Part shown: in pieces, positions 1,752 to 62,311 of the stretch | Layout: each line of letters starts with the position of its first letter | How positions within the stretch are numbered: position 1 is the stretch's first letter | DNA from: a virus | Strand: one strand, 5' to 3' | UHGV virus genome: UHGV-0371537 | Length of the DNA stretch: 64,000 nt | The notes under the pieces: generated by a model | Told to the model about the DNA's origin: nothing | The model's input: only the letters and a program-made list of their open reading frames with translations | Database searches by the model: none | Made by a program: the position numbers and the translations under genes

Positions 1752-1807
1752 TCAATAACCTCGGGCGGCTTATCATAAAGTCGCCCTTTCATTTGAGAGA
1801 CTATATC

Positions 1808-3004: not shown

Positions 3005-3097
3005 TAATTTCGCTTTATTCAATATGTTTTGTTAGGTAAGCTGTAGTCCTCTTGTAGTGAACATGAAAGTAAACATTAACCCAACGGAGAAATCCAG

Positions 3098-11511: not shown

Positions 11512-11610
11512 GGCTGAAGGGCACTAAATATCACGTGCCCTTTATCTTTTAACCCCTGTCAGGAGGCTCAATCGAGCTGCAAGTCGACAAACCACATAAG
11601 GAACGCCATC

Positions 11611-12863: not shown

Positions 12864-12879
12864 AAATAATTCAATAAAA

Positions 12880-12899
12880 GGGGCTTTCGCCCCTTTACT
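12880..12899 (+). terminator. rho-independent terminator (hairpin ggggc-tttc-gcccc plus T-run)
   Basis: Read directly; T-run overlaps the -35 of the following promoter. Confidence 0.5.
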
Positions 12900-12922
12900 T
12901 CTTCAATATCCTTCCCTATACT
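12894..12922 (+). promoter_or_regulatory. early-type promoter TTTACT-N17-TATACT
   Basis: Immediately follows terminator hairpin; identical architecture at 26635-26663. Confidence 0.5.
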
Positions 12923-12970
12923 TCATTCCATAAGCAGTACGACACCAACTTGAAACGAAGGAACTATATT

Positions 12971-13330
12971 ATGGCTATCACCACAAAAACTGAATTGAAC
13001 GCGATCCTGAAAGAAGCTGGCTTCGGTAGTATCAAACGCCAGGGCAAGGTTTTACGCGATGGCGGTAAAATCGTAAAGGGCATCATGTTGGGAAGTACTG
13101 GCCCGTTGAGCATCAGCTCCCCTCAGTATGACAATCTTCGTAAACTGGCGCGTGAACTTCTCCAAGAAGACCTCCATATCACGACGCAAGAAACCAATTA
13201 TGTGGTTTTGGAATGCAACAAATTCATCGTCAGCCTTTACATCTGCAGCACCCGCTCATATCCGGTGTCTGAAGGTTATGACCCAATGTATCTGACCCAT
13301 TATGCTCAGGTTACTGTCAAAGCAAAATAA
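12971..13330 (+). CDS. hypothetical protein
   Basis: ATG 12971 in context ggaactatattATG downstream of promoter cassette; terminator follows. Confidence 0.5.
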   Translation: MAITTKTELNAILKEAGFGSIKRQGKVLRDGGKIVKGIMLGSTGPLSISSPQYDNLRKLARELLQEDLHITTQETNYVVLECNKFIVSLYICSTRSYPVSEGYDPMYLTHYAQVTVKAK

Positions 13331-15475: not shown

Positions 15476-16048
15476 ATGAAACCTTTTATCGAATATTTTA
15501 AAGAGCAAGCTGCACAGCCTCAGACCCATGCTGGTGTCCAGGGTAAGACCGTATCCATCACCAAGCAAGCTGACGGCACCCAGTGGTGTTCCGGCGCTAC
15601 CGTGACCCAGATCACTCCTGACAATCAGGCGGATGTCTACAACCTGGAGTTAACCAACGGCAACACCATCAAGGTGAAGCTGACCCCAGACCAGACTCAC
15701 GGTATCTCCCAAGGTCAGGAAGTTGTTGCTGTCCACGATGGCTTCGAATTCTTCTTCTTCGGCAAGTCCGCCGACAAAGGCCAGGTGACTGAAGCCTATG
15801 CCCAGGAACTGGCGAACATGGACAAGATGATCGGTAAAGCACTGGGTGTTGGCAAGTCCCGCAAGAGTGGTCGCACTGAGTTCGAATACTCTGGCATCCC
15901 TGGCATCGGCAAGGCGATCACCGTGAACTTCGGCGGCGAAGATGACCCATATGTGATCGTCACCTGCAACGGCAAAGAGCAGGACATCAGCAAGGGTAAA
16001 AACCTGGCTGCTGACATTGCCAAGTTCCTCGGTGTTAAGCCTGTGTAG
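15476..16048 (+). CDS. internal-protein-like (capsid-targeting N-terminus)
   Basis: gaggag RBS; N-terminus MKPFIEYFKE resembles T4 CTS MKTYQEFIAE. Confidence 0.6.
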   Translation: MKPFIEYFKEQAAQPQTHAGVQGKTVSITKQADGTQWCSGATVTQITPDNQADVYNLELTNGNTIKVKLTPDQTHGISQGQEVVAVHDGFEFFFFGKSADKGQVTEAYAQELANMDKMIGKALGVGKSRKSGRTEFEYSGIPGIGKAITVNFGGEDDPYVIVTCNGKEQDISKGKNLAADIAKFLGVKPV

Positions 16049-16083
16049 AAGGGTGAACTTTGCAACCGGGTGAGTCGTAAAAT

Positions 16084-16108
16084 AAACCCCGCTTTTCGCG
16101 GGGTTTTG
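16084..16108. terminator. bidirectional rho-independent terminator between convergent internal-protein genes
   Basis: aaaccccgc-ttttc-gcggggttt: 9-bp stem flanked by A-run and T-run. Confidence 0.7.
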
Positions 16109-16714
16109 TTATTTCACATACATACTGACTTGTACTTTCTTACCTTTTTCGTTTTTGACGTCCATCAGCTTGGATGCACCATTCAGTTTCATGACGGTTC
16201 CGCGTTCTTTGCCGCCATTCGGTAACTCGTATTCAATATCTTCCCCAGGAGATGGCATACCCGCATGAGGTCCCATAACCATGGCGATCTTATAACGAGC
16301 CAAGCCGGGGCGACCGCCTTTATACGCATACCAACCACCTTCAGTCATTTCTTTCCATTGCTTGTTACCGTCAATGGAGATAAAGGAATTGCCCATACCT
16401 GATTTGACATCCAACAAGTCAATATATTTGCCTGATTTGTTGTACTTGACAGCGGTGTCAGTATCAACCTTGTCAATCATCTGGGCGCTGGCAAACTGTC
16501 CATCTTTCAATCCAGATGCTGAGATGATGTCTTTGGCATTGGCCAGGATTATCTTGCGACCGTCAGGGGTTTCAAAGGTGGCTTTGTCGCCACTAACACT
16601 AACTCGCAAGAAAGTGCCGATATTGTCTTCGGTGGACTTGCCGATCTTGTCTGACTTGATATGAACAGACATCGGTGGCGCGGCTTCGGTCAAAAAGTCT
16701 TGAAAAGTTTTCAT
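16109..16714 (-). CDS. internal-protein-like (capsid-targeting N-terminus)
   Basis: N-terminus MKTFQDFLTEA nearly identical in pattern to T4 CTS MKTYQEFIAEA; GGAGAA RBS. Confidence 0.65.
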   Translation of the reverse strand: MKTFQDFLTEAAPPMSVHIKSDKIGKSTEDNIGTFLRVSVSGDKATFETPDGRKIILANAKDIISASGLKDGQFASAQMIDKVDTDTAVKYNKSGKYIDLLDVKSGMGNSFISIDGNKQWKEMTEGGWYAYKGGRPGLARYKIAMVMGPHAGMPSPGEDIEYELPNGGKERGTVMKLNGASKLMDVKNEKGKKVQVSMYVK

Positions 16715-16803
16715 TTTCGTTCTCCAGTTATATTATTCTATATAGTACCTCATGGACCCATTAACACTAAATACTAGATGGTTCACAATACAGGAAACAA
16801 ATC

Positions 16804-19140: not shown

Positions 19141-19181
19141 AAAATACTTCAAAAATATTTTAAAAATTTATTGAAAAAGAC

Positions 19182-19210
19182 TTTACTCTTCAATAATGAT
19201 GCACTATTAT
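19182..19210 (+). promoter_or_regulatory. early-type promoter TTTACT-N17-TATTAT followed by stem-loop 19222-19238
   Basis: Read directly; TTCAATAA lies in the spacer. Confidence 0.5.
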
Positions 19211-20311: not shown

Positions 20312-20380
20312 CACGGCAGTTCCTCAAGTAGTTCACTTTCACTTTAAATACCTTCGCATTCATTGCGGAGGTATTTTCTT

Positions 20381-21279: not shown

Positions 21280-22122
21280 ATGCAATCTGCCACCAAAGTT
21301 GTAAGTATGAAGCCAGCGGGCAAGACCAAGTCAGCACGTAAGAAGGAGACTGTTCAGAAAGAAGATGACTGGATGAAGTTCTCCAAAGGCGACTTTAGAA
21401 TCGCTCCGTTCAATGGCCTCTCAGAGAATCAGAACCTCGCATATCAATCTGCTCTTGAAGAAAACCTCACCATCGCGATTGGTCCGGCAGGCACGGGTAA
21501 ATCGTACTGCGGTGCCTCAGCCGCCGCCAAGCTCCTGATCGATAAAGTTGTCAGTAAGATCGTCATCACACGCTCTCCGCTGCCAACAGGCCAGACAGCA
21601 GGCTTCCGTCCTGGCGACACTTACGAAAAGCTCATGCCATACCTGATGCCCCTGATTCAGACGCTGAAAAAGGTGCTGAAGACCGATACTGGCAGCGACG
21701 GGTTCTTCAACTATCTGTGGGAGAAACGGATCATCGAGATCCAGGATCTGGAGACCATCAAGGGGATGACCTTTGACGACACCTTCCTGATTATCGAAGA
21801 AGCGCAGGAATGCGATATGGAGCAGCTGAAGAACCTGCTGACCCGCGCATCCGACTCGACTTACATCTTTGTCAACGGTGACATCAAGCAATCCAACAAG
21901 CGCCTGCGCGACAGCGCTCTGGAAAAGTACGTCGGTTCCTTCCGCGACTTCAACGCCAAGCTGGAGGCCGGAACTCTGAAGATCGATGGTGTTGGAGTCG
22001 GTGATGAATACCCTGAATGGGTACAACCGTTCAGTATCATCGAATTCAACAAGACCGACCGCAACGGGCGCGGCGACTTCACTCGCCTGATGCTGGAAGT
22101 CAACGATCTGTACGACATTTAA
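21280..22122 (+). CDS. phoH: PhoH-like ATPase
   Basis: Walker A GPAGTGKSY and PhoH-like Walker B region FLIIEEAQ. Confidence 0.8.
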   Translation: MQSATKVVSMKPAGKTKSARKKETVQKEDDWMKFSKGDFRIAPFNGLSENQNLAYQSALEENLTIAIGPAGTGKSYCGASAAAKLLIDKVVSKIVITRSPLPTGQTAGFRPGDTYEKLMPYLMPLIQTLKKVLKTDTGSDGFFNYLWEKRIIEIQDLETIKGMTFDDTFLIIEEAQECDMEQLKNLLTRASDSTYIFVNGDIKQSNKRLRDSALEKYVGSFRDFNAKLEAGTLKIDGVGVGDEYPEWVQPFSIIEFNKTDRNGRGDFTRLMLEVNDLYDI

Positions 22123-22191
22123 GTAACTCACCAACACTCCCCGCCGCCTTCAATCTACGAGGGCGGCGTATAATATGTTCCGAGACTAATC

Positions 22192-22851
22192 ATGAATTAT
22201 CAAAATATCTATGACTCTCTGATACAAAGAGCCAAGACCCGTTCATTGGTTGGTTATTCTGAAACCCACCATATTATCCCTAGATGTATGGGAGGGAAAG
22301 ATGACAAACATAATCTGGTGGAGTTGACACCAGAAGAACATTATTTAGCACATCAATTGTTAGTCAAAATATATCCCAAAAATTTCAAATTAGCATTTGC
22401 AGCTAATGCTATGTGCGTAAACAATGAATTCTCCGGTAGATCTTGTAACAAATTATTCGGTTGGTTGCGGAGAAAACTTTCTCATTCCAATAAACAGATG
22501 TACAAAGACAACCCTAATTTGAGGAAAATTCGTTCCGATCAAATGAAACAGACACATGTAAAGTATTCTCATTTGCGGGAAATACAGTCTAAACGTTTGA
22601 AGGAAAACAATATATGCGTGATAAAACAACCTTGGGAAAGTAACCATGCCACCAAAGAGTCTTTGGATATATGGAAACGCGCCGACGAATATTATGATTG
22701 GTGGTTGTGCAACCAAAAAGGTTGCACGTTCATGGCGAAAGCGTTTGGGTTCAAAAACAAGACGACTCCGCATTTCACAATGATTAATAAATTTAAATCT
22801 GGGTGGAATCCCAAAGCCGACCCAGAGTGGTTAGAGTTTGTAAGTCAATAA
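22192..22851 (+). CDS. HNH homing endonuclease (free-standing)
   Basis: ETHHIIPRCMGGKDDKHNLVELTPEEHYLAH = HNH motif; A+T-rich island between phoH and nrdA. Confidence 0.75.
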   Translation: MNYQNIYDSLIQRAKTRSLVGYSETHHIIPRCMGGKDDKHNLVELTPEEHYLAHQLLVKIYPKNFKLAFAANAMCVNNEFSGRSCNKLFGWLRRKLSHSNKQMYKDNPNLRKIRSDQMKQTHVKYSHLREIQSKRLKENNICVIKQPWESNHATKESLDIWKRADEYYDWWLCNQKGCTFMAKAFGFKNKTTPHFTMINKFKSGWNPKADPEWLEFVSQ

Positions 22852-26608: not shown

Positions 26609-26616
26609 TCTGTCAA

Positions 26617-26640
26617 AGCCCCTCAATGAGGGGCTTTACT
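26617..26640 (+). terminator. rho-independent terminator after nrdC-like gene
   Basis: agcccctc-aatg-gaggggct then tttactttt. Confidence 0.55.
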
Positions 26641-26663
26641 TTTGAAACACCCTCCCCTATACT
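26635..26663 (+). promoter_or_regulatory. early-type promoter TTTACT-N17-TATACT
   Basis: Overlaps 3' arm of the nrdC terminator hairpin; paralogous to 12894-12922. Confidence 0.5.
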
Positions 26664-26713
26664 TCCCAATAATTCATTGGCATTCGCCACAAATTGAAAG
26701 CGGGAACTATATC

Positions 26714-29636: not shown

Positions 29637-29670
29637 ATTGAGTTCCGGTTGTCAAACAAGGATTTGAAGG

Positions 29671-29678
29671 TATTTATG
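29671..29678 (-). promoter_or_regulatory. late-promoter-like box CATAAATA upstream of gp5-like gene
   Basis: One mismatch to TATAAATA; 35 nt upstream of ATG 29636. Confidence 0.3.
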
Positions 29679-29972
29679 CGCAGCGGATTTTGCCTTATAT
29701 ACTATAGGAAGCTCTGCTTCCGTTCAGTTATTGTCTTATTCGATCTTATTCGCTTCGCTCATCACACCGCCTTATGCAGGCAGCACCATTCCAATGCCAT
29801 GGAGGCATAAGGGCGAGGCAATAACTGTACACCTCAGAACATCCCTTGAAAAATGGTTTTTAATTGACAATCTGATTCAAAATAGACGATCCCCAACAAT
29901 GACTCAGGAACAAGCCCATTATAACAATTTCAGGTAAAGAGAGCGCGTGTTAACCTGTTTTGCAGTTAAGCC

Positions 29973-29997
29973 AATAAAAATCCCGCCGAAGCGGGAT
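29973..29997 (-). terminator. rho-independent terminator on minus strand
   Basis: atcccgc-cgaa-gcgggat; on minus strand the hairpin is followed by TTTTTATT. Confidence 0.6.
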
Positions 29998-33665: not shown

Positions 33666-33762
33666 TTCAGTGCAGTAACGGGGTATAATTACCCCGCTTT
33701 AAAGTAAATCGATAATACATGCAACAGAATAGCCCTGAGGGGCGGAAACAGAGGAATTAGAA

Positions 33763-36527: not shown

Positions 36528-36591
36528 TTCTATAACCCGTTCCGGGTGATAATTCGCGAACGGGTAATTCCTTCAACAATGAGGCTATATC

Positions 36592-37335: not shown

Positions 37336-37448
37336 ATAAAACTTGTTTTCAATACTGACGTTGAAAGTTAATATTCACGCAAGTTCGCGCTCCGCTTGGC
37401 GGGGCGCTGTTTAACATGAAGGTGTTAACTTCTTTTCAATAAAAAGTG

Positions 37449-37477
37449 GTTTACATCTATGAAAAATGCAGTATATT
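37449..37477 (+). promoter_or_regulatory. T4-early/sigma70-type promoter GTTTAC-N17-TATATT
   Basis: Read directly: GTTTAC 37449-37454, 17-nt spacer, TATATT 37472-37477; about 70 nt upstream of ATG 37548. Confidence 0.55.
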
Positions 37478-38444: not shown

Positions 38445-38474
38445 TTTAAGTTCAGAATCTGTTCAATAGATGAA

Positions 38475-38505
38475 GGGGCTGCTATAATAGCAGCTCCTTT
38501 TGTTT
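38475..38505 (+). terminator. rho-independent terminator whose loop contains TATAAT
   Basis: 8-bp stem (one G-U), loop tataata, then ttttgtttatt. Confidence 0.6.
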
Positions 38506-38518
38506 ATTGGAGCAGTCT

Positions 38519-39184
38519 ATGTCCTACTCCCTCAAGGGGTTGCTCAAGCGCCCCGTCCACACATTCATTAAACCGCCTGTCGTAAAGGGGATATACCCGG
38601 CACGAGGGCAAATCTATTACGTCAAAGGCTCGAATGGTAGCGGTAAATCTACCGTGCCTTCCCAGCTGGCGGAGAGGGATCCTCAGGCGTATGTCGTGAC
38701 GCATGATAGCAAGATCATGCTGACGGTCTGTCCGTCATTCAACGTGGTCTGCATTGGCAAATATGATAAGTCAAAGTCCAAGGGGGTTGATTCTCTGAAG
38801 GATACTGAACAAATGCTATTCGCCCTGAGCATCGCCGATCTACCTGAATATCAGGTATACGATGTGATCTTTGAAGGCATCATCCCGTCAACACTGCTGA
38901 GTTCCTGGATTCCCCGCCTGACGCGCCCACCGCGCGAACTGGTTGTCCTCTTCATGGACACCCCTCTTGAAACCTGCATCGCCCGTGTTAAATCACGTAA
39001 CGGCGGTGCGGACTTCAATGAGAGCCTCGTGGTAGAGAAGTGGGGGCGCGTTCAAGACCACCGCCAGCGCCATAAGGGCTTGTTCCCTACGGTGGCCGCA
39101 GGTATGATGAAGTCTCACGGTCTAACAGTAGACCAGGCTGTAATGGCATTCCTCTGTCGTGATTTTGGGGATATTGATGACTAA
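38519..39184 (+). CDS. P-loop NTPase, kinase-like
   Basis: Walker A YVKGSNGSGKST (close to polynucleotide-kinase-type GxxGSGKST); ggag RBS. Confidence 0.55.
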   Translation: MSYSLKGLLKRPVHTFIKPPVVKGIYPARGQIYYVKGSNGSGKSTVPSQLAERDPQAYVVTHDSKIMLTVCPSFNVVCIGKYDKSKSKGVDSLKDTEQMLFALSIADLPEYQVYDVIFEGIIPSTLLSSWIPRLTRPPRELVVLFMDTPLETCIARVKSRNGGADFNESLVVEKWGRVQDHRQRHKGLFPTVAAGMMKSHGLTVDQAVMAFLCRDFGDIDD

Positions 39185-39749
39185 GAAATTGGTCTATGGG
39201 GTTGGTCACAACGACATGCCCTATGGCACAGCTACGGTAAATGGAAAGGCAACCGACGAATATTCTGCTTGGTCGGGGTTGTTACAAAGGGCGTATGATC
39301 CAAAATACCATGCCAGAAATCCGACTTATGTTGGTTGCTCTGTCGTGGAAGAGTGGCATTTTCGATCGAAATTCGTTAAGTGGTTTGGTGTGAACTACGT
39401 TAAAGGATGGTGTCTAGACAAGGATATTTTGAATCCTGGAAACAAAGTTTATGGCCCAGACACATGCATCTATGTGCCCGTTTGGATCAATACATTTGCC
39501 AATGATAGCGGCGCAATAAGGGGTGGTCTCCCAATAGGAGTTTCATTAAACAAGACAACCGGAAAATATCTTTCTCAGTGTAAATCCGGTGGTAAAGTGA
39601 TAAATCTGGGTTATTACGACGACCCCAAAGAAGCGCACGAGGTTTGGTTGAGATTTAAGCTAAACCTGGTTTTGGAAAGGAAGAAAGACATGGATAGTAT
39701 AGACCATCGTATTTATCCAAATCTGGTTCATATTTTGCAAAGTAAATGA
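39177..39749 (+). CDS. homing-endonuclease-like protein with AP2-like DNA-binding motif
   Basis: A+T-rich gene; KVINLGYYDDPKEAHEVWL resembles AP2/HNH_3-associated DNA-binding motif. Confidence 0.4.
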   Translation: MTKKLVYGVGHNDMPYGTATVNGKATDEYSAWSGLLQRAYDPKYHARNPTYVGCSVVEEWHFRSKFVKWFGVNYVKGWCLDKDILNPGNKVYGPDTCIYVPVWINTFANDSGAIRGGLPIGVSLNKTTGKYLSQCKSGGKVINLGYYDDPKEAHEVWLRFKLNLVLERKKDMDSIDHRIYPNLVHILQSK

Positions 39750-45263: not shown

Positions 45264-45277
45264 GTAATTCAATAAAG

Positions 45278-45306
45278 CAGATCATAGGGTATAATTCTAT
45301 GATCTG
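45278..45306 (+). promoter_or_regulatory. perfect 10-bp stem-loop with TATAAT in the loop
   Basis: cagatcatag / ctatgatctg; loop ggtataatt; not followed by a T-run. Confidence 0.4.
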
Positions 45307-45328: not shown

Positions 45329-45664
45329 ATGTTACACAATGATTTTATGGCTGGCCTGGTGCAGGCCGCCAAACAGGTGTGCCACACCAAACAAGCGATT
45401 GAGCTGAGTCCGGAGCAGACTCTGGAGTTCTTTGACAATCGTAAAATCTGGGAGGAATATGGCATCGGCATGATCTGCCAAGAGGGTGAACTCGTACAGC
45501 TGGATCTGCCGTCATTCCCCCTTCCAGTGCGCACCAACACAGTGGAATGGTATACGACGGAAGACGGTGTTGAGATCATCCCGAAGTTCCAGTATCACTC
45601 CATCGTAAACTTCTTTTTACGCCGTCGTGGGGCTAATCTGATCCCACAAGGCATGAGATCTTAA
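45329..45664 (+). CDS. hypothetical protein
   Basis: ATG 45329 with aggag RBS (ATG 45308 lies just after a hairpin and lacks an RBS). Confidence 0.45.
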   Translation: MLHNDFMAGLVQAAKQVCHTKQAIELSPEQTLEFFDNRKIWEEYGIGMICQEGELVQLDLPSFPLPVRTNTVEWYTTEDGVEIIPKFQYHSIVNFFLRRRGANLIPQGMRS

Positions 45665-45679
45665 CAAGAGGAACAACAA

Positions 45680-46000
45680 ATGTCTGTAGAACAAATCGGC
45701 TTTTATGCACTACCGTCTGATCCTGAGTCTCGCCGCAAGCTGATGGGCGCGATTGAAAACTGCCGCGCCGCCCAGGTCCGCATCAAATCGGAACAGACCT
45801 TCATTACAGAAACCCTGGCCGAACTGGCGAAAGATACTGGCATCAAAGCCTCCGACCTGCGCAAGGTTGTGTCTGACCGTGCCAATGGCACCTACCAGAA
45901 AACGATCGAAACGAGCGAGAAGTATCAGGATCTTTACGAATCCCTGTTCCCGAACGCCAAGCCTGATCGTGATCCAAACGTTACAACGTCTGACGAATAA
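45680..46000 (+). CDS. hypothetical protein
   Basis: agagga RBS; terminator follows. Confidence 0.45.
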   Translation: MSVEQIGFYALPSDPESRRKLMGAIENCRAAQVRIKSEQTFITETLAELAKDTGIKASDLRKVVSDRANGTYQKTIETSEKYQDLYESLFPNAKPDRDPNVTTSDE

Positions 46001-46017
46001 GTTGACCAAACACCAAG

Positions 46018-46045
46018 AAGCCCAGTCAAGTACTGGGCTTTTTAA
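46018..46045 (+). terminator. rho-independent terminator
   Basis: aagcccagt-caagt-actgggctt then tttaattt. Confidence 0.6.
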
Positions 46046-46055
46046 TTTCAATAAC

Positions 46056-46084
46056 TTTACTTTCAAGAATAAAGCGCCTATTAT
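46056..46084 (+). promoter_or_regulatory. early-type promoter TTTACT-N17-TATTAT
   Basis: Flanked by TTCAATAA (46047-46054) and TATTGAAG (46093-46100). Confidence 0.5.
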
Positions 46085-46115
46085 TTAATCTCTATTGAAG
46101 AGTTGTTACTAAATC

Positions 46116-47321
46116 ATGAGGCTGGAAATGAACGCCAAAACATTCAACATTCCGATCGACAATGAAGGGCTAGTGGTTGAGCGACTGAAAAAGCTCGAGC
46201 GCACTGCTGTCCGTCTGGGTGTACCATTCCCGACTGTGACTTATGGTGAACCCTTCAAGACCCACACCCGTGACTTCACTGGTGAGATCCTCACTCACTG
46301 GTGGAAGCCCGTCACCCTCGAAGGTGAAGGCATTGACCGCCCGGTGTCATACGGTGGTTGGAAAATCATTGGTCAGTTCAATCACGAATACCCAAAGGTC
46401 ATTCTGAACCGACTGTCCGACAATATCAATGCTGACTTCATCCGTCGCTTCGAGACAGAGAATGTCTCTTGGTGCCAGCATTGCAACCTGCTCATCAATC
46501 GCAAGAACACATATGTGATTGAAAACGAGGAAACGCACACTCAGATGCTGATCGGCAGCACCTGCATGCATCATTATGTGCCTCATCAGAAGTCCCTTGA
46601 CGCGATCATGTCTTACTATCTGGGAATCCAGGAGTTCTTCATGCCGGATGAAGATGATCCAGAGGGCATCTATCGCGTTCGTAACGAACAATTCACAGAT
46701 ACCCACAATTACCTGCGTGCGTGCTTCCAGGTGATGCTGTCTGGCGTAGACATCAAGTCTGAACTATTTGACAAAGTCCTGGGCTATGTCCGGTCTTATC
46801 AGAAACCAAAAGCAGGTTCCGATGAAGAGCATTTCGTATACAAGGCACACGAGTACCGTGAAGACGCCGAGTCAGAAATGTACCACATGAAGCTCTTCAT
46901 CAGTGCGCTGTCTGAATCCAATGAATTCAACGTTCGCCTGAAACGCATGTGTGAACCGGGCTACCACCTGATCAAGGACGATAACACAGTCCGCTGGGGT
47001 GCCAAGAAGTATTACGATTACATCCATCGCCCTCGCGCCGACCGCAAGACAGAGAACAAATGGGTGGGCGAAGTCGGGGAGATGCTGGAAGTACAAGTCA
47101 GGTTCGACAAGCGCGTCTTCCTCTTCTCCAATGAATACGGTGACAGCTACCTGTTTACTTTCAAAACAGTAGAAGGCAATACAATTACCTGGAAGACCTC
47201 TTGTATGGATACAGAGTTCTTGCAGGGCGATATGATCATCCGTGGTCGTGTCAAAGAACTGACTGAGTACAACGGTGTTAAACAAACTCAGGTCACCCGA
47301 GCCAAATTGAGGAAATTATGA
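46116..47321 (+). CDS. hypothetical protein with Cys/His cluster and C-terminal OB-fold-like domain
   Basis: WCQHC...STCMHH cluster; C-terminal VGEVGEMLEVQV...ITWKT...GDMIIRGRVKE resembles OB-fold; alternative start 46128. Confidence 0.5.
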   Translation: MRLEMNAKTFNIPIDNEGLVVERLKKLERTAVRLGVPFPTVTYGEPFKTHTRDFTGEILTHWWKPVTLEGEGIDRPVSYGGWKIIGQFNHEYPKVILNRLSDNINADFIRRFETENVSWCQHCNLLINRKNTYVIENEETHTQMLIGSTCMHHYVPHQKSLDAIMSYYLGIQEFFMPDEDDPEGIYRVRNEQFTDTHNYLRACFQVMLSGVDIKSELFDKVLGYVRSYQKPKAGSDEEHFVYKAHEYREDAESEMYHMKLFISALSESNEFNVRLKRMCEPGYHLIKDDNTVRWGAKKYYDYIHRPRADRKTENKWVGEVGEMLEVQVRFDKRVFLFSNEYGDSYLFTFKTVEGNTITWKTSCMDTEFLQGDMIIRGRVKELTEYNGVKQTQVTRAKLRKL

Positions 47322-47433: not shown

Positions 47434-47595
47434 ATGAAACGTGAAATCATGGATGTGTATGATCCAGGGTCTTGTTGTCCCGGTCATGACAAGTATCCAT
47501 CCGATACTTACAAGAATCGACGTTCCAAAGCGCAACGCTCCAAGAGTATTAAGAAGGAGCATCGCCACGCTCGTCGTGTAAGCGTCTGGGGCTGA
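47434..47595 (+). CDS. small basic protein (53 aa)
   Basis: Unlisted ORF MKREIMDVYDPGSCCPGHDKY...; aagagga RBS; Arg/Lys-rich C-terminus. Confidence 0.35.
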   Translation: MKREIMDVYDPGSCCPGHDKYPSDTYKNRRSKAQRSKSIKKEHRHARRVSVWG

Positions 47596-47845: not shown

Positions 47846-47907
47846 AATGCGCAAGTATTTCAACTGGTTGTTGGCAAGATCCCGCAGCCAATAATCTATT
47901 GAAGTCC

Positions 47908-47940
47908 CCAGGGTTATAATAGCAACACATATAACCCTGG
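47908..47940 (+). promoter_or_regulatory. stem-loop with embedded TATAAT that pairs the ligase Shine-Dalgarno
   Basis: 11-bp stem ccagggttata/tataaccctgg; TATAAT 47915-47920; GGAG 47939-47942 half inside the 3' arm; ATG 47950. Confidence 0.45.
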
Positions 47941-47949
47941 AGACATTAC

Positions 47950-55697: not shown

Positions 55698-55747
55698 GGT
55701 CTCAGCCCTTAAATAGATAGAGTGTTATGGCTATTTAGGACTAAATT

Positions 55748-56362
55748 ATGAGCAACTATCTTCAGGGGAAATACACCCCGGTTAATCCCAAGAAGTACCA
55801 GGGGAATGTGAACAACATCATCTTCCGCTCTTCGCTGGAGTTGGTGGCTTTCAAGTTCTGTGATATGAACTCCGCGATAGTGAAGTGGTCGTCTGAAGAG
55901 ACTGTAATCCCTTACGTGTCTCCGGTTGACGGTCGGACCCATCGTTACTTCATGGACCTCAAGGTGTGGACACACCGTGAAGGACAGGAAGAACTCCAGG
56001 TCACCCTCATTGAGATCAAGCCCAAAGACCAGATTAAGCAGCCGAAGAAGACTCCGTCTATGAAGGAATCAACCTTCAACAATGCGATGCGAACCTGGCT
56101 GGTCAACTCCGCCAAATGGGAAGCCACCCGCGAACTGTGTGCCAAGAAGAACTGGAAGTTCATTATCTGGACTGAAGAGCATCTTGTCCCAGGCGAAGAT
56201 CCCGATGTTCGCAAACAGTTCGAACTGAAGTCGAAGAAGAAACGGGATATGGAGATGGAAGACCGCCGTCGTGCCGAACGCGTCAGATTCTTGAAAGAAC
56301 AGATGCGGAAGGAGATTCATCCCGCCCCAACGGAACGGGATGATGGGCTGTTGCTTCCCTAA
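55748..56362 (+). CDS. 4: head completion protein gp4-like
   Basis: FRSSLELVAFKFCD...VKWSSEETVIPYVSPVDGRTHRYFMD...IEIKP matches the gp4 family pattern (YRSSWEL...WSSEE.VIPY...RYF.DF...EIKP) as recalled. Confidence 0.55.
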   Translation: MSNYLQGKYTPVNPKKYQGNVNNIIFRSSLELVAFKFCDMNSAIVKWSSEETVIPYVSPVDGRTHRYFMDLKVWTHREGQEELQVTLIEIKPKDQIKQPKKTPSMKESTFNNAMRTWLVNSAKWEATRELCAKKNWKFIIWTEEHLVPGEDPDVRKQFELKSKKKRDMEMEDRRRAERVRFLKEQMRKEIHPAPTERDDGLLLP

Positions 56363-56571
56363 CTTCTTTTGTGCCCAGGGGCGTAACAGGTATGTCTGTC
56401 GCGCCCAATTTGCCAACCATCAGCCCGAGCCAATCTGACACACTCACCCCAAGTCTCACCAGTGTACTGTTTGAATCCACATTTGGGGTGATGCTCTTCC
56501 CAAGCCCAACTGCATGATTTACAGTCAGAGCATTCACAATACAGGTCGATGGTGTAGCCTGAAGTAATCAT
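56359..56571 (-). CDS. small Cys-rich protein
   Basis: CECSDCKSC...HPKCG...CYAPGH. Confidence 0.4.
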   Translation of the reverse strand: MITSGYTIDLYCECSDCKSCSWAWEEHHPKCGFKQYTGETWGECVRLARADGWQIGRDRHTCYAPGHKRS

Positions 56572-56573
56572 GA

Positions 56574-56933
56574 TCAGTCACCAACCAAATGAAGGTCCGG
56601 GGGTAATTTCTTCAACATGGACTCCACATCTTCCACTTTAAAGAAATCCGTTTTCTCTCCATCTTGAATTCTTATCATTTCCCCTCTGATGTTGGGCACA
56701 TTGATATAAACATCAGATCCTTCTATTTTGAAAGCCACGGTGTAGAATATAGCATCTGCATCGAATCTGGCTCCGGTGATGATGCCCTTCAACCACACGT
56801 CTTCTTCAGAATCGGAGGTTGGGTCACCCAATTTCAGTTTGATGGCGTCACCAGGGTTAAATTGGGTGCTTGGGACTTCGTTCCGGCGTCTGGCTTCCAT
56901 TTCCGTGAGGAATGTTCTATTTTGCCAGCTCAT
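56574..56933 (-). CDS. hypothetical protein
   Basis: ORF track. Confidence 0.45.
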   Translation of the reverse strand: MSWQNRTFLTEMEARRRNEVPSTQFNPGDAIKLKLGDPTSDSEEDVWLKGIITGARFDADAIFYTVAFKIEGSDVYINVPNIRGEMIRIQDGEKTDFFKVEDVESMLKKLPPDLHLVGD

Positions 56934-57353: not shown

Positions 57354-57863
57354 TTACTTGTCAGGGTTCACTAAAACAGGGTTAGATACCAGTTCGCCGT
57401 TCTTCACAGAATGCTGAACCACAGCAAACTGATCGACCATGCGATACACTTCAATCCCAGCAGCCAACATTTCAATAATACCGTCTGTGATCCGGTACGG
57501 TACATTGTATATGACCTTACCAATCTTGCCACTGTCGATAATACGACGGGTGCATTCCGGACACGGACTGTGGGTGACAAACATCACCAGACCACACCAG
57601 TCTTCAGCCCACTGGGGGAGTTTGTTTAAGGCATTCTCCTCAGCGTGGATAACGCCCACCGATACCAGTTGACCGTCCACTTCTTTCTCGCAAACATTTG
57701 GAGCGCCGGGGGCTGTCCCGTTCCAGCCGATAGATAGGGGCTGGTCAACACGTGGGTCAACGATAACACAGCCGACCTTCAGGCGCTGGGCATAGCTGGA
57801 CAGAGCGTATGCATGAGCAGAGCGCATATGCGCAAACATCATACGGGGTTTGATAGCCATCAC
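57354..57863 (-). CDS. cd: dCMP deaminase
   Basis: Zinc-binding HAEENAL and PCPEC motifs of cytidine/deoxycytidylate deaminases. Confidence 0.85.
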   Translation of the reverse strand: MMAIKPRMMFAHMRSAHAYALSSYAQRLKVGCVIVDPRVDQPLSIGWNGTAPGAPNVCEKEVDGQLVSVGVIHAEENALNKLPQWAEDWCGLVMFVTHSPCPECTRRIIDSGKIGKVIYNVPYRITDGIIEMLAAGIEVYRMVDQFAVVQHSVKNGELVSNPVLVNPDK

Positions 57864-58174
57864 ATCACCAGTTTCTTTTCAAGGAGGAAGATCATGTCGT
57901 CCTGGTCTGCGCGACCGAAGATCTGACCCATGGCGACCATCTGGTGAACTTCTCTGGTAATGATTTCTTTGCCAGGAGTAACTTCATCCAGGTCCATGAT
58001 AGTGCTGACGCGGTCTACCATGCGCGGCGGGTGATTAATGTAGCGCTGCAGGTACTTCTCACGAGTGGCAATCAGGTTGTTCAGCTCGGCGATTTCAGAC
58101 TCTTCTTCTGAGAAGCGCTTTTCCTTCGCCTGTAGTTCAGCCAGACGCTCATACATTTCTTTTAATGGGGTCAT
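57860..58174 (-). CDS. hypothetical protein
   Basis: ORF track; AAGAGGAA RBS. Confidence 0.45.
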   Translation of the reverse strand: MTPLKEMYERLAELQAKEKRFSEEESEIAELNNLIATREKYLQRYINHPPRMVDRVSTIMDLDEVTPGKEIITREVHQMVAMGQIFGRADQDDMIFLLEKKLVM

Positions 58175-58244
58175 TTCCGGTTCCTCTTAATAAACTAAGG
58201 GGAAGTATATACTCCCCCTTCTTCAATAACCGCTGAATCTTTAT

Positions 58245-60162: not shown

Positions 60163-60791
60163 CCCACAACCTCCAGCCCCATCAGATCTTCCATGGTCTT
60201 CTGAATACGCAGCCAGTCAAGCGCAGCGTCATAACGAGGGTCATGATAGACCATACCTTCCAGTTCCCACGCCTTGATACCAGCATACCGATCCTGCTGT
60301 CCAACACCCTTCAGCCAACTCACGATGTCGAAGGTGTGGTGGTAATCCCAAGGCTCGTTGGAATCCTGCTTACACGTCACCTCAATGATGTGCTGAGCCT
60401 TGCGCAGATCGAACAGGTTGCGATCACACCAGTCAACCGAGCGCGGGTCTACCCCAAGACGATGACAACCCTTGCGGATTTCATCGGCCAGCTGGAAGAT
60501 AGAGATGTCATCTTCCTTGGGGTACAGACTGACTGCGCGAGCCGCATCACACGGGTTACGTTTACCCGCCCCCAACCACCATTCTACCGTCCCAGCGTCC
60601 TTCACGCGACCAAGTTCGAGCTGCTCTTTGACATTCAGCTTAATGAACGTCGTGTGCTCCTCAACCAGCTGCTGAAGAGTATAACGCTTGGTCAGGTCGG
60701 CGATGGTGTGCGCCCAAGACAGCATGACTGCATCATCCCAGCGCCCCAAGGTTTCACTGTCGGCCACAGCCAAAAAATTTGATTTATACAT
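60159..60791 (-). CDS. 3'-5' exonuclease-like protein (DexA-like, tentative)
   Basis: N-terminal FLAVADSETLG (D-x-E) suggests DEDD-type exonuclease. Confidence 0.45.
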   Translation of the reverse strand: MYKSNFLAVADSETLGRWDDAVMLSWAHTIADLTKRYTLQQLVEEHTTFIKLNVKEQLELGRVKDAGTVEWWLGAGKRNPCDAARAVSLYPKEDDISIFQLADEIRKGCHRLGVDPRSVDWCDRNLFDLRKAQHIIEVTCKQDSNEPWDYHHTFDIVSWLKGVGQQDRYAGIKAWELEGMVYHDPRYDAALDWLRIQKTMEDLMGLEVVG

Positions 60792-61035
60792 GCTTATTCT
60801 CCCAACACTTTATTTTGGCTTTTACTGTATAATAATTTTCATCAATGAACTTTTTGTTGACGCGCTTAATTTCTATCTCTGGGCAAAGTAACCCTATAGT
60901 TTCCCTCAAAATCTGGCTCACCCTGGCCTGTGAAATACAATAAATTTCTGATACTTCTTTCGAACTAGTTCCAGACATGACAAGTTTTAGAATATTGACC
61001 TTTTTATAAAATTCTTGATCAAACGCGCATATCAT
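60784..61035 (-). CDS. small HTH protein (sigma-70 region-4-like)
   Basis: SKEVSEIYCISQARVSQILRE resembles region-4/LuxR-type HTH; strongly A+T-rich gene. Confidence 0.45.
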   Translation of the reverse strand: MICAFDQEFYKKVNILKLVMSGTSSKEVSEIYCISQARVSQILRETIGLLCPEIEIKRVNKKFIDENYYTVKAKIKCWENKHV

Positions 61036-61038
61036 TAT

Positions 61039-61638
61039 TCACCCCTCCTCGTCGATGATTTCTTGCTCATCTTCGACAATCATGATACCTTCTGTGTCCA
61101 GATGAGAAAGTTCCATCAGATCATCATCGAATCCGTCTCCTTCCCTGATATAGAAGACTGGGACGACACGACGGCGGGTCTCTTCATACACGCTTTCAGA
61201 GATTCGATTGATATGGCGCACTACACTGTAGAGGTTCAGGCCACCAATACCACAGCCGATAGCAGGCAGGCCGACATAGACAGTTTCGTCTTTAGTTGCT
61301 TCCACAATTTCATGCACCTGCTCAAACAGGGTCTGAACAGAACTGATGACTGACGGCATGCGAGCGTTCGGACCTGGATAAAACTGAGTGTAGAGATTCG
61401 CACCCCAAACGCCCTTGCTGTGGTCAAATGCATAGGACATACCACCCAGGCGTTGCTCTGGACCACGAGGGTCGTTCGCATCGACTTCGCGCAGCGCTGG
61501 GAAGTTGTTGCCGATGTGCAGGGCAATACCCGCGCCCATGGTGGACCAGCAGTTGGCACCGTGGGCAAAGATGTTTATCAGATTGAAGCTGCAGGCGGCT
61601 TTCAGTAAATCACCGCCATTGATTACATAAGTGGTCAT
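61039..61638 (-). CDS. macro-domain-like protein (ADP-ribose binding/processing)
   Basis: VINGGDLL...INIFAHGANCWSTMGAGIALHI...GLPAIGCGIGGL parallels macro domain motifs (GDIT...NAAN...GGGV..AI...FPAISTG); internal ATG with GGAG RBS. Confidence 0.55.
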   Translation of the reverse strand: MTTYVINGGDLLKAACSFNLINIFAHGANCWSTMGAGIALHIGNNFPALREVDANDPRGPEQRLGGMSYAFDHSKGVWGANLYTQFYPGPNARMPSVISSVQTLFEQVHEIVEATKDETVYVGLPAIGCGIGGLNLYSVVRHINRISESVYEETRRRVVPVFYIREGDGFDDDLMELSHLDTEGIMIVEDEQEIIDEEG

Positions 61639-61877
61639 GCGTACTGTCTCCATTCAATAATGCTGTTGTCAACACACAACACCTGAAAGATGCCCGTGCG
61701 GTGGCGATAATCGGTTATCTGCAGGATAAAGTTGTTCCCATTGCGGATAATGGTGTTGACAACGATACCCTTGGCAGCAAGGCGTGTTACTATCTCAGTG
61801 CAAAGGCGGTCCATATAACCGGACACAGAACCTGGTTCAAAGCAGCGCTCGAACAGATTTTCAAATTCTGGATTCAT
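61635..61877 (-). CDS. hypothetical protein
   Basis: ORF track; candidate promoter hairpin upstream. Confidence 0.4.
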   Translation of the reverse strand: MNPEFENLFERCFEPGSVSGYMDRLCTEIVTRLAAKGIVVNTIIRNGNNFILQITDYRHRTGIFQVLCVDNSIIEWRQYA

Positions 61878-61927
61878 TTGTTGTTACCAAACAAGGGGTC
61901 GAGGCGGTAATAATACCGCCTTTTTCT

Positions 61928-62311
61928 TCAATAGAGGTCTTCGGAAAAGAGTTCACGGAAAGGATTGGTTTTGAGGCGGACCTGGTTGATCTGTCCGGCT
62001 TCACGGGCTACGACGCAAGCCTCTTCACGAGTGAGGAAGTTCCCCTGATTGTCGATGAAGCCCTGCTCACGAGTATGAGTAGATTTAATGACGCCAGCCT
62101 CCTTCAGAATCTTGAGCTGGCTGTTCATGAATCGGCTATGGTGTCGGTCAGCAACAACGATTACATCACCATATTTGTTTGCAGCAGCGACCACACGGCG
62201 CTCCCAAGCCCCTTCCGCAGGGAGGTCACGGGTGTACAGGGGAATCACAGTATCACCGATGGAGTCGCCATTCACCTGGGAGAATAATTTACCATCAGTG
62301 CCTGTTGGCAT
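61928..62311 (-). CDS. hypothetical protein
   Basis: ORF track. Confidence 0.45.
   Translation of the reverse strand: MPTGTDGKLFSQVNGDSIGDTVIPLYTRDLPAEGAWERRVVAAANKYGDVIVVADRHHSRFMNSQLKILKEAGVIKSTHTREQGFIDNQGNFLTREEACVVAREAGQINQVRLKTNPFRELFSEDLY

What the first reader, a model, noticed from the sequence alone, without database searches (positions are those of the whole stretch)
46047..46100. Octamer TTCAATAA / TTATTGAA recurs around promoters and hairpins
TTCAATAA occurs at 12870, 19189, 45268, 46047 and 58222, with variants at 12902, 38462 and 22149. Its reverse complement TTATTGAA(G) occurs at 19168, 46093, 47897 and, on the minus strand, in the 58175-58244 and 61878-61927 intergenic regions. 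At 46047-46100 and 19168-19196 the two orientations form an inverted pair bracketing a promoter. All sites are in intergenic DNA, which is a small fraction of the window, so chance is unlikely. It may be the binding site of a phage regulator (a MotA-box analogue) or a recombination signal.
Basis: seen in the sequence. Interest (0 to 1): 0.45.

Follow-up and report, generated by a model that had tools for sequence, protein, structure and literature searches.

The report
Conserved promoter box of ViI-like phages
The repeated octamer TTCAATAA is real and is the core of a conserved box sitting where the -35 element should be in the early/middle promoters of ViI-like (Ackermannviridae) phages, a family whose pre-late promoters were reported as unidentifiable; the protein that reads it is unknown.

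Summary
TTCAATAA occurs 10 times in the window (2.0 expected); 7 copies lie in the 5.7% that is intergenic, where it is the commonest 8-mer. In the complete genome of the close relative SKML-39, 23 of 28 copies lie in the 7.8% non-coding DNA. The window is an Agtrevirus-like Ackermannviridae phage.

The octamer is the core of TT(C/A)TTCAATAA(A/C). In the main class it ends 12 bp before a near-consensus -10 hexamer. It faces the downstream gene (22 forward, 7 reverse), lies 50-115 nt before start codons and avoids structural gene blocks. The -10 often sits in the loop of a covarying, terminator-like hairpin, an arrangement already described for PeSL/PmSL cassettes of T4-type phages. A second class, which includes the focal site 46047-46100, is a T4-early-type promoter (TTTACT-N17-TATTAT) with boxes flanking the -35.

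Box and -10 are conserved at orthologous sites in four genera, while site flanks within a genome are unrelated.

The spacing equals that of the T4 MotA box, but the sequence differs and no MotA or AsiA homologue exists. The reader protein is unidentified and a recombination role found no support. All evidence is computational. I rate it a new variant of a known kind.

The parts
46047..46054 (+). Focal promoter (class A): upstream box TTCAATAA, 1 nt before the -35
   Evidence: conserved in SKML-39 and LIMEstone1, repositioned in Kuttervirus and Taipeivirus
46056..46084 (+). Focal promoter core: TTTACT (46056-46061), 17-bp spacer, TATTAT (46079-46084). The spacer begins with the degenerate box TTCAAGAA (46062-46069). 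Drives the gene at 46128-47321
   Evidence: the sigma70 scanner scores it 9/12. The LIMEstone1 ortholog is annotated 'putative middle promoter'
46092..46100 (-). Focal promoter: reverse box CTATTGAAG (one mismatch), starting 8 nt after the -10, in the initial transcribed region
   Evidence: TTGAA core conserved across genera
46018..46040 (+). Terminator-like hairpin just upstream of the focal promoter (PeSL-type arrangement)
19168..19210 (+). Class A promoter: reverse box TTATTGAA (19168-19175), -35 TTTACT (19182-19187), spacer box TTCAATAA (19189-19196), -10 TATTAT (19205-19210)
   Evidence: same architecture at SKML 69439 and 140215
12870..12922 (+). Class A promoter: box TTCAATAA (12870-12877), terminator hairpin (12880-12893), -35 TTTACT (12894-12899), spacer box TTCAATAT (12902-12909), -10 TATACT (12917-12922)
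   Evidence: belongs to the one paralogous cassette family
37435..37477 (+). Class A promoter: box TTCAATAA (37435-37442) upstream of TTTACA (37450-37455) and TATATT (37472-37477)
   Evidence: 10/12; box conserved in four of the five relatives compared, absent in phage May; equals Porf069 of Ag3
37348..37374 (+). Candidate class B site: TTCAATAC with TAATAT at offset 21
   Evidence: conserved in LIMEstone1; weaker than the other sites
45268..45305 (+). Class B: box TTCAATAA (45268-45275), hairpin 45279-45305 with -10 TATAAT (45290-45295) in its loop. Drives 45329-45664 and the DsbA-like gene
   Evidence: conserved across 10 sequences, 3 of 9 stem pairs compensatory
38462..38500 (+). Class B: box TTCAATAG (38462-38469), terminator-like hairpin 38472-38500 with -10 TATAAT (38483-38488) in its loop, followed by TTTTGTTT
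   Evidence: top terminator call; identical layout in the five relatives compared, four genera; equals Porf067 of Ag3
47896..47944 (+). Class B, reverse box: CTATTGAAG (47896-47904), hairpin 47904-47944 with -10 TATAAT (47915-47920). The 3' arm contains the ligase Shine-Dalgarno GGAG (47939-47942); ATG at 47950
   Evidence: conserved in the five relatives compared, four genera, with G-U-compatible stem changes
58197..58229 (-). Class B, reverse box on the minus strand: TTATTGAAG (58221-58229), hairpin 58197-58220 containing -10 TATACT (58204-58209). Drives 57860-58174
   Evidence: conserved in the five relatives compared, four genera
61903..61934 (-). Class B, reverse box on the minus strand: CTATTGAAG (61926-61934), hairpin 61903-61920 with -10 TATTAT (61910-61915) in its loop. 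Drives 61635-61877
   Evidence: conserved in SKML-39, aagejoakim and May
36528..36564 (+). Class B, degenerate box TTCTATAA (36528-36535), hairpin 36536-36564 with GATAAT (36548-36553) in its loop
   Evidence: conserved layout in relatives
33666..33696 (+). Class B upstream of gp32: box diverged in the window (TTCAGTGC; LIMEstone1 has TTCAATAT), hairpin with TATAAT (33684-33689) in its loop
22149..22174 (+). Class B-like: TTCAATCT (22149-22156) with TATAAT (22169-22174) at offset 20, before a homing-endonuclease-like ORF
3018..3042 (+). Class B-like: TTCAATAT (3018-3025) with TAAGCT (3037-3042) at offset 19, before the HU-like gene (3098-3376)
   Evidence: the SKML ortholog has exact TTCAATAA
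26635..26663 (+). Class A promoter without a box (TTTACT-N17-TATACT), a paralog of the 12864 cassette; included for contrast
45680..46000 (+). Gene for a 106-aa putative regulator (phrog_639; sub-threshold Phage_DsbA), immediately upstream of the focal promoter. Candidate reader of the box, unproven

Best explanation
TTCAATAA is the core of an 11-12 bp DNA box, TT(C/A)TTCAATAA(A/C). The box marks the pre-late (early/middle) promoters of Ackermannviridae phages.

Main class (B):
- The octamer occupies about -32 to -25 and ends 12 bp before a near-consensus -10 hexamer. It stands where a canonical -35 would be.
- The -10 commonly lies in the loop of a hairpin. That hairpin forms in read-through RNA from the upstream gene and either terminates it or, at the ligase gene, masks the ribosome-binding site.
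- Transcripts started at the internal -10 lack the 5' arm and so escape the hairpin.

Second class (A):
- This is a T4-early-type promoter, TTTACT-N17-TAYWAT.
- One box lies at variable positions in the spacer. A second box lies 15-32 bp upstream, three times at 21-22 bp.

Most likely mechanism: the box is a protein-recognition site on duplex DNA that supplies the upstream promoter contact in class B. This is the logic of a MotA box. The same reader would occlude the -35 region of class A promoters, giving an early-to-middle switch.

Shown: enrichment, fixed spacing, orientation bias, gene-class bias, cross-genus conservation, hairpin covariation.
Inferred: that the TAnnnT hexamers are used as -10 elements, the start sites, that a trans-acting protein reads the box, and the activator/repressor duality.
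For: - Enrichment: 10 copies against 2.0 expected. It is the top intergenic 8-mer, 7 against 0.4 expected. In SKML-39, 23 non-coding against 5 coding copies, with 7.8% of the genome non-coding.
- Enrichment in other genera: Limestonevirus 9 against 1.3, Kuttervirus 15 against about 3. The T4 control region shows none, 3 against 3.0.
- Fixed spacing: offset 20 for 8 of 30 non-coding boxes and offset 19 for 3. Coding boxes show no peak. The partners are TATAAT, TATTAT or TATACT.
- Orientation 22 forward to 7 reverse, p = 0.008. Boxes lie 50-115 nt before start codons. Only 1 of 30 lies in structural blocks that hold 22% of non-coding DNA.
- Box and -10 are conserved at orthologous sites in Agtrevirus, Limestonevirus, Kuttervirus and Taipeivirus while flanks diverge.
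- Flanks of different sites are unrelated, with median identity 0.27, so paralogy is not the cause.
- Hairpins: 11 of 19 composite sites have z of -3.6 to -7.2 with the -10 at the apex. There are compensatory and G-U changes.
- Class B sites fail a canonical sigma70 scan.
- The spacing equals that of the T4 MotA box (PMC2988021).
- Ag3's authors independently called several of these sites promoters.
Against: - No transcription start sites or expression data exist for this family in the literature I could search. Promoter function is therefore inferred from sequence.
- No reader protein is identified. MotA and AsiA are absent. The neighbouring DsbA-like protein is a sub-threshold match with no fold neighbour.
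- The 11-mer begins exactly in the canonical -35 register, so host sigma70 alone might read TTMTTC.
- A few class B sites carry the box reversed, 1-2 bp closer to the -10. That is awkward for an asymmetric activator site.
- Box positions in class A vary (offsets 14-18).
- Taipeivirus shows only weak enrichment of the exact octamer, 5 against 3.3.
Confidence: 0.6

Rival explanations
1. The box is read by host sigma70 RNA polymerase alone. TT(C/A)TTC would be a family-specific weak -35 hexamer in the normal 17-bp register. The conserved AATAA would be a spacer or DNA-shape feature, as T4 early promoters have their own GTTTAC variant plus extra conserved positions. No phage factor would be involved.
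For: The 11-mer starts 23 nt before the -10, which is the canonical -35 register. T is enriched at the first two positions, 20/30 and 19/30. G is frequent just before the -10 in the listed sites, a partial extended -10 (sequences). T4 early promoters also carry conserved positions beyond the core elements (PMC2988021). Ag3's authors read these sites as sigma70 promoters.
Against: TTMTTC matches TTGACA at only 2 of 6 positions, and class B sites fail a 4-of-6 scan. The most invariant bases, CAATA at about -30 to -26, lie mostly outside the -35 hexamer that sigma region 4 reads (established knowledge, not tested here). The box also occurs reversed, in spacers at variable positions, and upstream at -44 to -59. 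None of these fits a -35 role.
Confidence: 0.25
2. The box is chiefly an operator for a dimeric phage repressor or regulator, for example the DsbA-like or HU-like protein. That protein would shut off or tune promoters. The fixed spacing in class B would reflect packing against the hairpin and not activation.
For: The TTATT-C-AATAA version is a perfect palindrome. Paired boxes 21-22 bp apart flank the -35 at three class A promoters. A third copy overlaps the start region of the focal promoter. A putative regulator gene lies immediately upstream.
Against: Most sites (22 of 29) are single and face one way relative to the gene. The commonest version, TTCTTCAATAA, is not palindromic. There is no evidence that any candidate protein binds it.
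Confidence: 0.1
3. The box is a recombination signal: the conserved part of PeSL-like mobile regulatory cassettes that mediate gene shuffling.
For: The promoter-plus-stem-loop cassettes resemble PeSLs, which are proposed recombination points (PMC2839356, PMC4122927). One family of duplicated cassettes exists. Some Kutterviruses have a 16-nt tandem duplication that includes the box.
Against: Only 4 of about 20 indel breakpoints have a box within 60 nt, and none has boxes at both ends. The 2-kb deletion beside the ligase site ends in coding DNA. Most sites share only the 8-12 bp box, too short for homologous exchange. This role would in any case be additional to a promoter role, not a replacement for it.
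Confidence: 0.04
4. The box acts in RNA, for example as an RNase E or other processing site in the single-stranded stretch just 5' of the hairpins.
For: The box lies 0-5 nt before the stems. The stems show G-U-compatible changes, which points to RNA-level selection on the hairpins.
Against: The box occurs in both orientations on the transcribed strand, giving different RNA sequences. It also occurs inside class A spacers and upstream of -35 elements with no hairpin next to it. Ordinary terminators in the window lack it.
Confidence: 0.01

Closest known systems
T4 middle promoters (MotA box plus -10, sigma appropriation by MotA/AsiA)
   Same: A short box replaces the -35. It ends 12 bp before a strong sigma70-type -10 and is centred near -30. 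The promoters sit in front of replication, recombination and nucleotide-metabolism genes in a T4-related genome.
   Different: The sequences are unrelated (TTCAATAA against TGCTTtA). The family has no MotA or AsiA (PMC3184105). The box also appears reversed, paired, and inside the spacers of early-type promoters. Function is untested.
PeSL / PmSL cassettes of T4-type phages (Arbiol 2010; Comeau 2014)
   Same: Both are intergenic composites of a promoter and a stem-loop. In RB49 the stem-loop most often lies between -35 and -10 or overlaps the -10, and it terminates transcription. PmSLs in phage nt-1 combine a Mot box, a -10 and a stem-loop. Class A promoters here match the T4/PST PeSL consensus TTTACW-N17-TAYWAT.
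   Different: The upstream element is a different, family-specific box. Most copies share no extended (~100 bp) similarity. No association with indel breakpoints was found. Only about half of the hairpins are followed by a T-run.
T4 hairpin masking of ribosome-binding sites with an internal promoter (lysozyme gene e, soc, gene 49, I-TevI). Recalled from my own knowledge of McPheeters et al. 1986 and related work; not checked here
   Same: At the ligase site the 3' arm of the hairpin contains the Shine-Dalgarno GGAG. A start about 7 nt after the -10 would fall in the loop. Read-through RNA would then be masked and promoter-derived RNA would not.
   Different: This applies clearly to one site only. 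Most other hairpins do not include the ribosome-binding site. In T4 the internal promoters are mostly late promoters.
Canonical sigma70 and T4 early promoters
   Same: The -10 hexamers are near consensus. Class A has a T4-type -35 (TTTACT) at 17 bp.
   Different: Class B has no hexamer with 4 of 6 or more matches to TTGACA at 16-18 bp. T4 early promoters in the segment examined carry no such box in their spacers.

Membership tests
T4 middle promoter / MotA box system | Box positioned 12 +/- 1 bp upstream of the -10, centred near -30, replacing the -35 | tested here: met
   Offset peak at 20 (8-nt box plus 12 bp) in non-coding DNA and no peak in coding DNA. Definition taken from PMC2988021.
T4 middle promoter / MotA box system | Box sequence (a/t)(a/t)(a/t)TGCTTtA | tested here: not met
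   The consensus here is TT(C/A)TTCAATAA(A/C).
T4 middle promoter / MotA box system | Phage encodes MotA and AsiA | tested here: not met
   tblastn and phmmer of T4 MotA and AsiA against the whole SKML-39 genome and the window gave best E-values of 0.05-1, which is noise. Kutter 2011 states the same. Only sequence-level homology was tested.
T4 middle promoter / MotA box system | Excellent match to the sigma70 -10 element | tested here: met
   TATAAT, TATTAT or TATACT at most sites.
T4 middle promoter / MotA box system | Transcription depends on a phage-encoded activator bound to the box | not testable with these tools
   Needs in vitro transcription or infection experiments.
PeSL / PmSL regulatory cassettes | Intergenic composite of a promoter and a stable stem-loop, with the stem-loop between -35 and -10 or overlapping the -10 | tested here: met
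   11 of 19 composite sites have hairpins with z of -3.6 to -7.2 and the -10 at the apex. There is covariation. Definition from PMC2839356.
PeSL / PmSL regulatory cassettes | Sigma70-like -35 and -10 spaced 17 bp (PeSL), or Mot box plus -10 (PmSL) | tested here: inconclusive
   Class A meets the PeSL form. Class B has neither a canonical -35 nor a Mot box; it has a different box at the Mot-box position.
PeSL / PmSL regulatory cassettes | Stem-loop acts as a transcription terminator or attenuator | tested here: inconclusive
   About half of the hairpins are followed by T-runs, for example 38472-38500, the top terminator call. The others lack a T-run. No functional test was possible.
PeSL / PmSL regulatory cassettes | Sequence conservation over about 100 bp between copies, and association with indels and ORFan shuffling | tested here: not met
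   Median flank identity is 0.27 and there is only one paralogous family. Of about 20 breakpoints, 4 lie near a box and none has boxes at both ends. Only one genome pair was compared.
Canonical sigma70 -35/-10 promoter | Hexamer with at least 4 of 6 matches to TTGACA, 16-18 bp upstream of a TATAAT-like hexamer | tested here: not met
   The scanner finds class A (37450, 46056) but none of the class B sites. The overall count is 20 against 15.8 expected.

The most novel reading that the evidence does not exclude
Ackermannviridae run a pre-late transcription switch that is functionally analogous to T4 sigma appropriation but built from unrelated parts. An unidentified phage protein, possibly a dimer, would bind TT(C/A)TTCAATAA. 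It would substitute for -35 recognition at the class B promoters and at the same time occlude the -35 of the T4-type early promoters. Recognition might depend on the family's hypermodified thymidines. This would answer the question left open in 2011 of how these phages, which lack MotA, AsiA, Alt and ModA, time their replication genes.
Probability: 0.3. Interest if true: 0.7.

Novelty: new variant of a known kind. Interest (0 to 1): 0.5.

Why it matters
Kutter et al. 2011 wrote that they could not identify early promoters in CBA120, a ViI-like phage, by informatics. [quoted passage not shown] The 2024 review of the family does not mention promoters or transcription (PMC11721090).

This box, with its fixed 12-bp spacing to the -10, gives a concrete, family-wide candidate for the missing promoter class. 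It supplies a short list of testable sites and a bait sequence for finding the factor that reads it.

Ackermannviridae are widely used for biocontrol, diagnostics and engineered reporter phages, so knowing their promoters has practical value for engineering. The case is also one where a MotA-box-like geometry is kept while sequence and proteins differ. That bears on how sigma-appropriation-type control evolves.

The limits are plain. Everything here is sequence inference, and composite promoter/stem-loop cassettes are already known in T4-type phages.

Tried and rejected
1. Whole-window shuffles as the only null. I rejected this as too lenient, because intergenic DNA is 42% GC against 50% overall, and replaced it with an intergenic Markov null and a max-over-all-8-mers test.
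2. Paralogy of whole promoter cassettes as the cause of enrichment. Rejected: flanks are unrelated apart from one family.
3. Recombination signal. No breakpoint association.
4. MotA/AsiA homologues. None found.
5. The neighbouring 'transcriptional regulator' (45680-46000):
   - no Pfam hit at E <= 0.01;
   - Phage_DsbA only at 13 bits, 20.7 bits in a homologue, against a cut-off of 25;
   - no PDB sequence hit;
   - a confident AlphaFold model (pLDDT 86) but no Foldseek PDB neighbour, best E 4.2. Dead end.
6. IMG/VR scan for TTCAATAA-N12-TATAAT. Uninformative.
7. IMG/VR search anchored on the 111-aa protein. It returned only 13 loci, all Agtrevirus- or Kuttervirus-like, so diversity for covariation stayed limited.
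8. Literature search for the octamer itself. Only primers and unrelated hits. One poorly designed query was wasted.
9. Rfam and tRNA scans of the window. Nothing found.
10. Host transcription-factor consensus sequences recalled from memory (IHF, FNR, H-NS, OmpR, ArgR). None is a convincing match. This was not tested with tools.
11. My own earlier reading that the SKML 136301 site is the DNA polymerase promoter was wrong. It lies downstream of the polymerase gene and drives the next gene.

Full report
**Identity of the window.** Megablast places the window in the Ackermannviridae (ViI-like, T4-related phages). It is closest to Agtrevirus members SKML-39, Ag3 and MK-13 at about 93% identity. I transferred the RefSeq annotation of SKML-39 onto the window by tblastn. 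This gave a map of 96 genes with 3,660 nt (5.7%) of intergenic DNA at 42% GC, against about 50% for the window as a whole.

**The observation.**
- Exact TTCAATAA occurs 10 times on both strands, against 2.0 +/- 1.2 in dinucleotide shuffles. None of 100 shuffles reached 10.
- Seven copies are intergenic: 12870, 19168(-), 19189, 37435, 45268, 46047 and 58222. Three are coding: 33625(-), 57471 and 61653.
- AT-rich intergenic DNA inflates AT-rich words, so I used a stricter null. Under a first-order Markov model of the intergenic DNA the octamer is expected 0.40 times. Any 8-mer reaches 7 copies in only 1.1% of simulations. It is the top intergenic 8-mer, and its 7-mer core TTCAATA occurs 13 times.
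The copies at 46093 and 47897 are CTATTGAA(G), one mismatch off. The 'minus-strand' copy in 58175-58244 is the 58222 site counted twice. The exact intergenic copy at 37435 and the three coding copies were missed.

**Genome-wide test.** I assembled the complete SKML-39 genome with its 208 annotated genes. Of 28 copies, 23 lie in the 7.8% of the genome that is non-coding. That is about a 54-fold excess in density. It is by far the commonest non-coding 8-mer, 23 copies against 13 for the runner-up, which overlaps it. The excess also holds in a Limestonevirus (9 against 1.3 expected) and two Kutterviruses (15 against about 3). It is weak for the exact octamer in a Taipeivirus (5 against 3.3) and absent in a T4 control segment (3 against 3.0).

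**Anatomy.** Two promoter architectures carry the box.

*Class B, the commoner:* (C)TTCAATAA, then 12 bp, then a TAnnnT hexamer that is usually TATAAT, TATTAT or TATACT.
- In SKML-39 the distance from the first T of TTCAATA to the first base of the -10 hexamer peaks sharply at 20. This holds for 8 of 30 non-coding boxes, with 3 more at 19. Coding copies show no peak.
- The generic sigma70 scanner finds none of the class B sites, because no TTGACA-like hexamer lies 16-18 bp upstream.

*Class A:* a T4-early-type promoter, TTTACT-N17-TAT(T/A)(A/C)T. This matches the TTTACW-N17-TAYWAT consensus reported for T4/PST PeSLs (PMC4122927).
- One box lies in the spacer at variable offsets of 14-18.
- A second box lies 15-32 bp further upstream, in either orientation. 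Three times it is 21-22 bp away.
- The focal site belongs to class A: box 46047-46054, -35 at 46056-46061, degenerate box 46062-46069, -10 at 46079-46084, and a reverse one-mismatch box at 46092-46100 in the initial transcribed region.
- The 19168/19189 pair flanks the -35 at 19182-19187.

*Other properties:*
- The extended consensus is TT(C/A)TTCAATAA(A/C). Its TTA form, TTATT-C-AATAA, is a perfect palindrome.
- Boxes face the downstream gene 22 times against 7 (p = 0.008) and lie 50-115 nt before start codons.
- Only 1 of 30 lies in the structural/late gene blocks, although these hold 22% of the non-coding DNA.

**Conservation.** I compared orthologous intergenic regions from SKML-39, LIMEstone1, aagejoakim, Vi01 and Klebsiella phage May, plus IMG/VR contigs.
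- Box and -10 are retained at most of the orthologous positions compared, across four genera, while the sequence around them diverges.
- At the focal promoter the box is kept in most relatives (degenerate in Vi01) but moves. It abuts the -35 in Agtrevirus and Limestonevirus. It is fused as TTTAC-TTCAATAA in Kuttervirus and Taipeivirus. It is tandemly duplicated in some Kutterviruses.
- Different sites within one genome share nothing but the box. Median flank identity is 0.27, and only one small family of duplicated cassettes exists. The enrichment therefore reflects selection on the box itself.

**The hairpins.**
- In 11 of 19 composite sites the -10 hexamer sits at the apex of a hairpin that is much more stable than shuffled controls (z of -3.6 to -7.2). 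The box lies 0-5 nt before the stem.
- Stems differ between sites and covary between species. Downstream of gp41, 3 of 9 pairs show compensatory double changes.
- Upstream of the ligase gene the changes run through U-G and G-U pairs, which are tolerated only in sense-strand RNA.
- About half of the hairpins are followed by a T-run. The hairpin at 38472-38500 is the scanner's best terminator call.
- At the ligase gene the 3' arm contains the Shine-Dalgarno GGAG (47939-47942). A start about 7 nt after the -10 would fall in the loop. Read-through RNA would then be masked and promoter-derived RNA would not. This is inference. It resembles what I recall of T4 lysozyme, soc and gene 49.

This architecture is not new in kind. 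Arbiol et al. 2010 report that in RB49/phi1 PeSLs the stem-loop most commonly lies between -35 and -10 or overlaps the -10. They showed that it terminates and that the cassette promotes (PMC2839356). Comeau et al. 2014 describe 'PmSLs' that combine a Mot box, a -10 and a stem-loop.

**Comparison with the MotA box.** Hinton 2010 defines the T4 MotA box as (a/t)(a/t)(a/t)TGCTTtA. It lies 12 +/- 1 bp from the -10, is centred at -30 and replaces the -35. It sits in front of replication, recombination and nucleotide-metabolism genes, with a stringent need for a good -10. The box here meets the positional, -10 and gene-class criteria. It fails on sequence and on the defining proteins. T4 MotA and AsiA have no detectable homologue in the complete SKML-39 genome or the window, in line with Kutter et al. 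2011. It works like a MotA box in layout but is not a member of that system.

**Who reads the box?** This is not resolved.
- The gene immediately upstream of the focal promoter (45680-46000, 106 aa) is called 'transcriptional regulator' through phrog_639.
- It matches Pfam Phage_DsbA only below threshold, at 13 bits, or 20.7 bits in a homologue, against a cut-off of 25.
- It has no PDB sequence match.
- A confident model (pLDDT 86) has no significant Foldseek neighbour.
- An HU-like protein is encoded at 3098-3376.
- A host-only reading also remains open. At the modal spacing the 11-mer begins exactly in the canonical -35 register, with T enriched at its first two positions.
- Against the host-only reading: the most invariant bases (CAATA, about -30 to -26) lie mostly outside the -35 hexamer, and the box also occurs reversed, in spacers and further upstream.

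**Recombination.** About 20 indel or replacement breakpoints separate the window from SKML-39. Four have a box within 60 nt and none has boxes at both ends. The 2,043-bp deletion beside the ligase promoter ends inside coding sequence, 24 nt short of the box. This one-pair test gives the recombination idea no support.

**Prior knowledge.**
- The Ag3 paper found about nine 'early promoters' by sigma70 matching. At least four are box sites described here (Porf067, Porf069, Porf100, Porf237), and Porf138 also carries the box in its spacer. A different piece of the box was forced into the -35 or -10 role each time, and the shared box was not noted (PMC3121705 supplement).
- LIMEstone1's depositors annotated the ortholog of the focal promoter as a 'putative middle promoter', purely by similarity to T4.
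- Kutter et al. 2011 state that early promoters could not be identified by informatics.
- The 2024 family review never mentions promoters or transcription.
- I found no transcriptome or start-site study of the family.
- ViI DNA has about 40% of its thymidines hypermodified (PMC5889632). This may matter for recognition of a box that is seven-eighths A-T.

**Verdict.** The octamer is the core of a conserved promoter-region box of Ackermannviridae pre-late genes, embedded in PeSL/PmSL-like promoter/terminator cassettes.
- The 'MotA-box analogue' reading is supported in geometry but not in membership. The existence of a dedicated phage reader is inferred.
- The recombination reading is unsupported.
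- I rate it a new variant of a known kind, of moderate interest. It offers a concrete handle on a question the field left open, but it rests entirely on sequence analysis.

Noticed in passing
window 20312-20380, 29637-29996, 55698-55747 (both directions), 16715-16803, 11512-11610; SKML-39 genome-wide: A second, independent intergenic motif, CTAAATACC(CC), has 11 non-coding and 0-2 coding copies in SKML-39. TAAATA-type copies also lie in the listed window regions, several of them next to structural (baseplate, head-completion) genes. It is a candidate gp55-type late promoter. Kutter 2011 said the late promoter of ViI-like phages had not been identified.
   Followed up: partly
window 1752-1807, 26609-26713, 36528-36591, variant in 12864-12994: The start-codon context (GGAA)CTATATCATG recurs, with 6 non-coding and 1 coding copies of CTATATCATG in SKML-39. 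It looks like a conserved spacer between the Shine-Dalgarno sequence and the ATG.
   Followed up: no
window 29637-29996; SKML-39 150141-150489: The unusually long 360-nt intergenic region between baseplate genes shares a segment of about 45 nt (GCCTCCATGGC..TGGAATGG..CTGCCTG..AAGGCGGTG) with another long intergenic region elsewhere in the SKML-39 genome. The window has no Rfam match.
   Followed up: no
window 15476-16800: The homologue of SKML-39 gp078 is cut short by a stop at 16048; the tblastn alignment runs through it. The following ~750 nt differ from SKML-39 and carry an opposite-strand ORF of 201 aa at 16109-16714.
   Followed up: no
window 22192-22851, 39159-39749, 47434-47595, 56359-56933, 60784-61035: These ORFs are absent at the corresponding place in SKML-39. 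The first is 41% identical to an SKML-39 homing endonuclease located elsewhere. Conversely, six small SKML-39 genes (about 2 kb) before the ligase gene are missing from the window.
   Followed up: partly
L004 about 21995-22030; L016, L021 (Kuttervirus orthologs of window 46001-46127): Some Kutterviruses carry a 16-nt tandem duplication, CTTTACTTCAATAAAA x2, of the -35 plus box. In aagejoakim a 34-nt 'repeat_region' is annotated at about this position.
   Followed up: partly
window 38519-39184: Annotation conflict for the gene driven by the 38462 promoter. RefSeq calls its SKML-39, aagejoakim (and by name P46FS4-type) orthologs 'terminase small subunit', although SKML-39 has another gene with that name in its packaging module. 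LIMEstone1 calls it thymidylate kinase.
   Followed up: no
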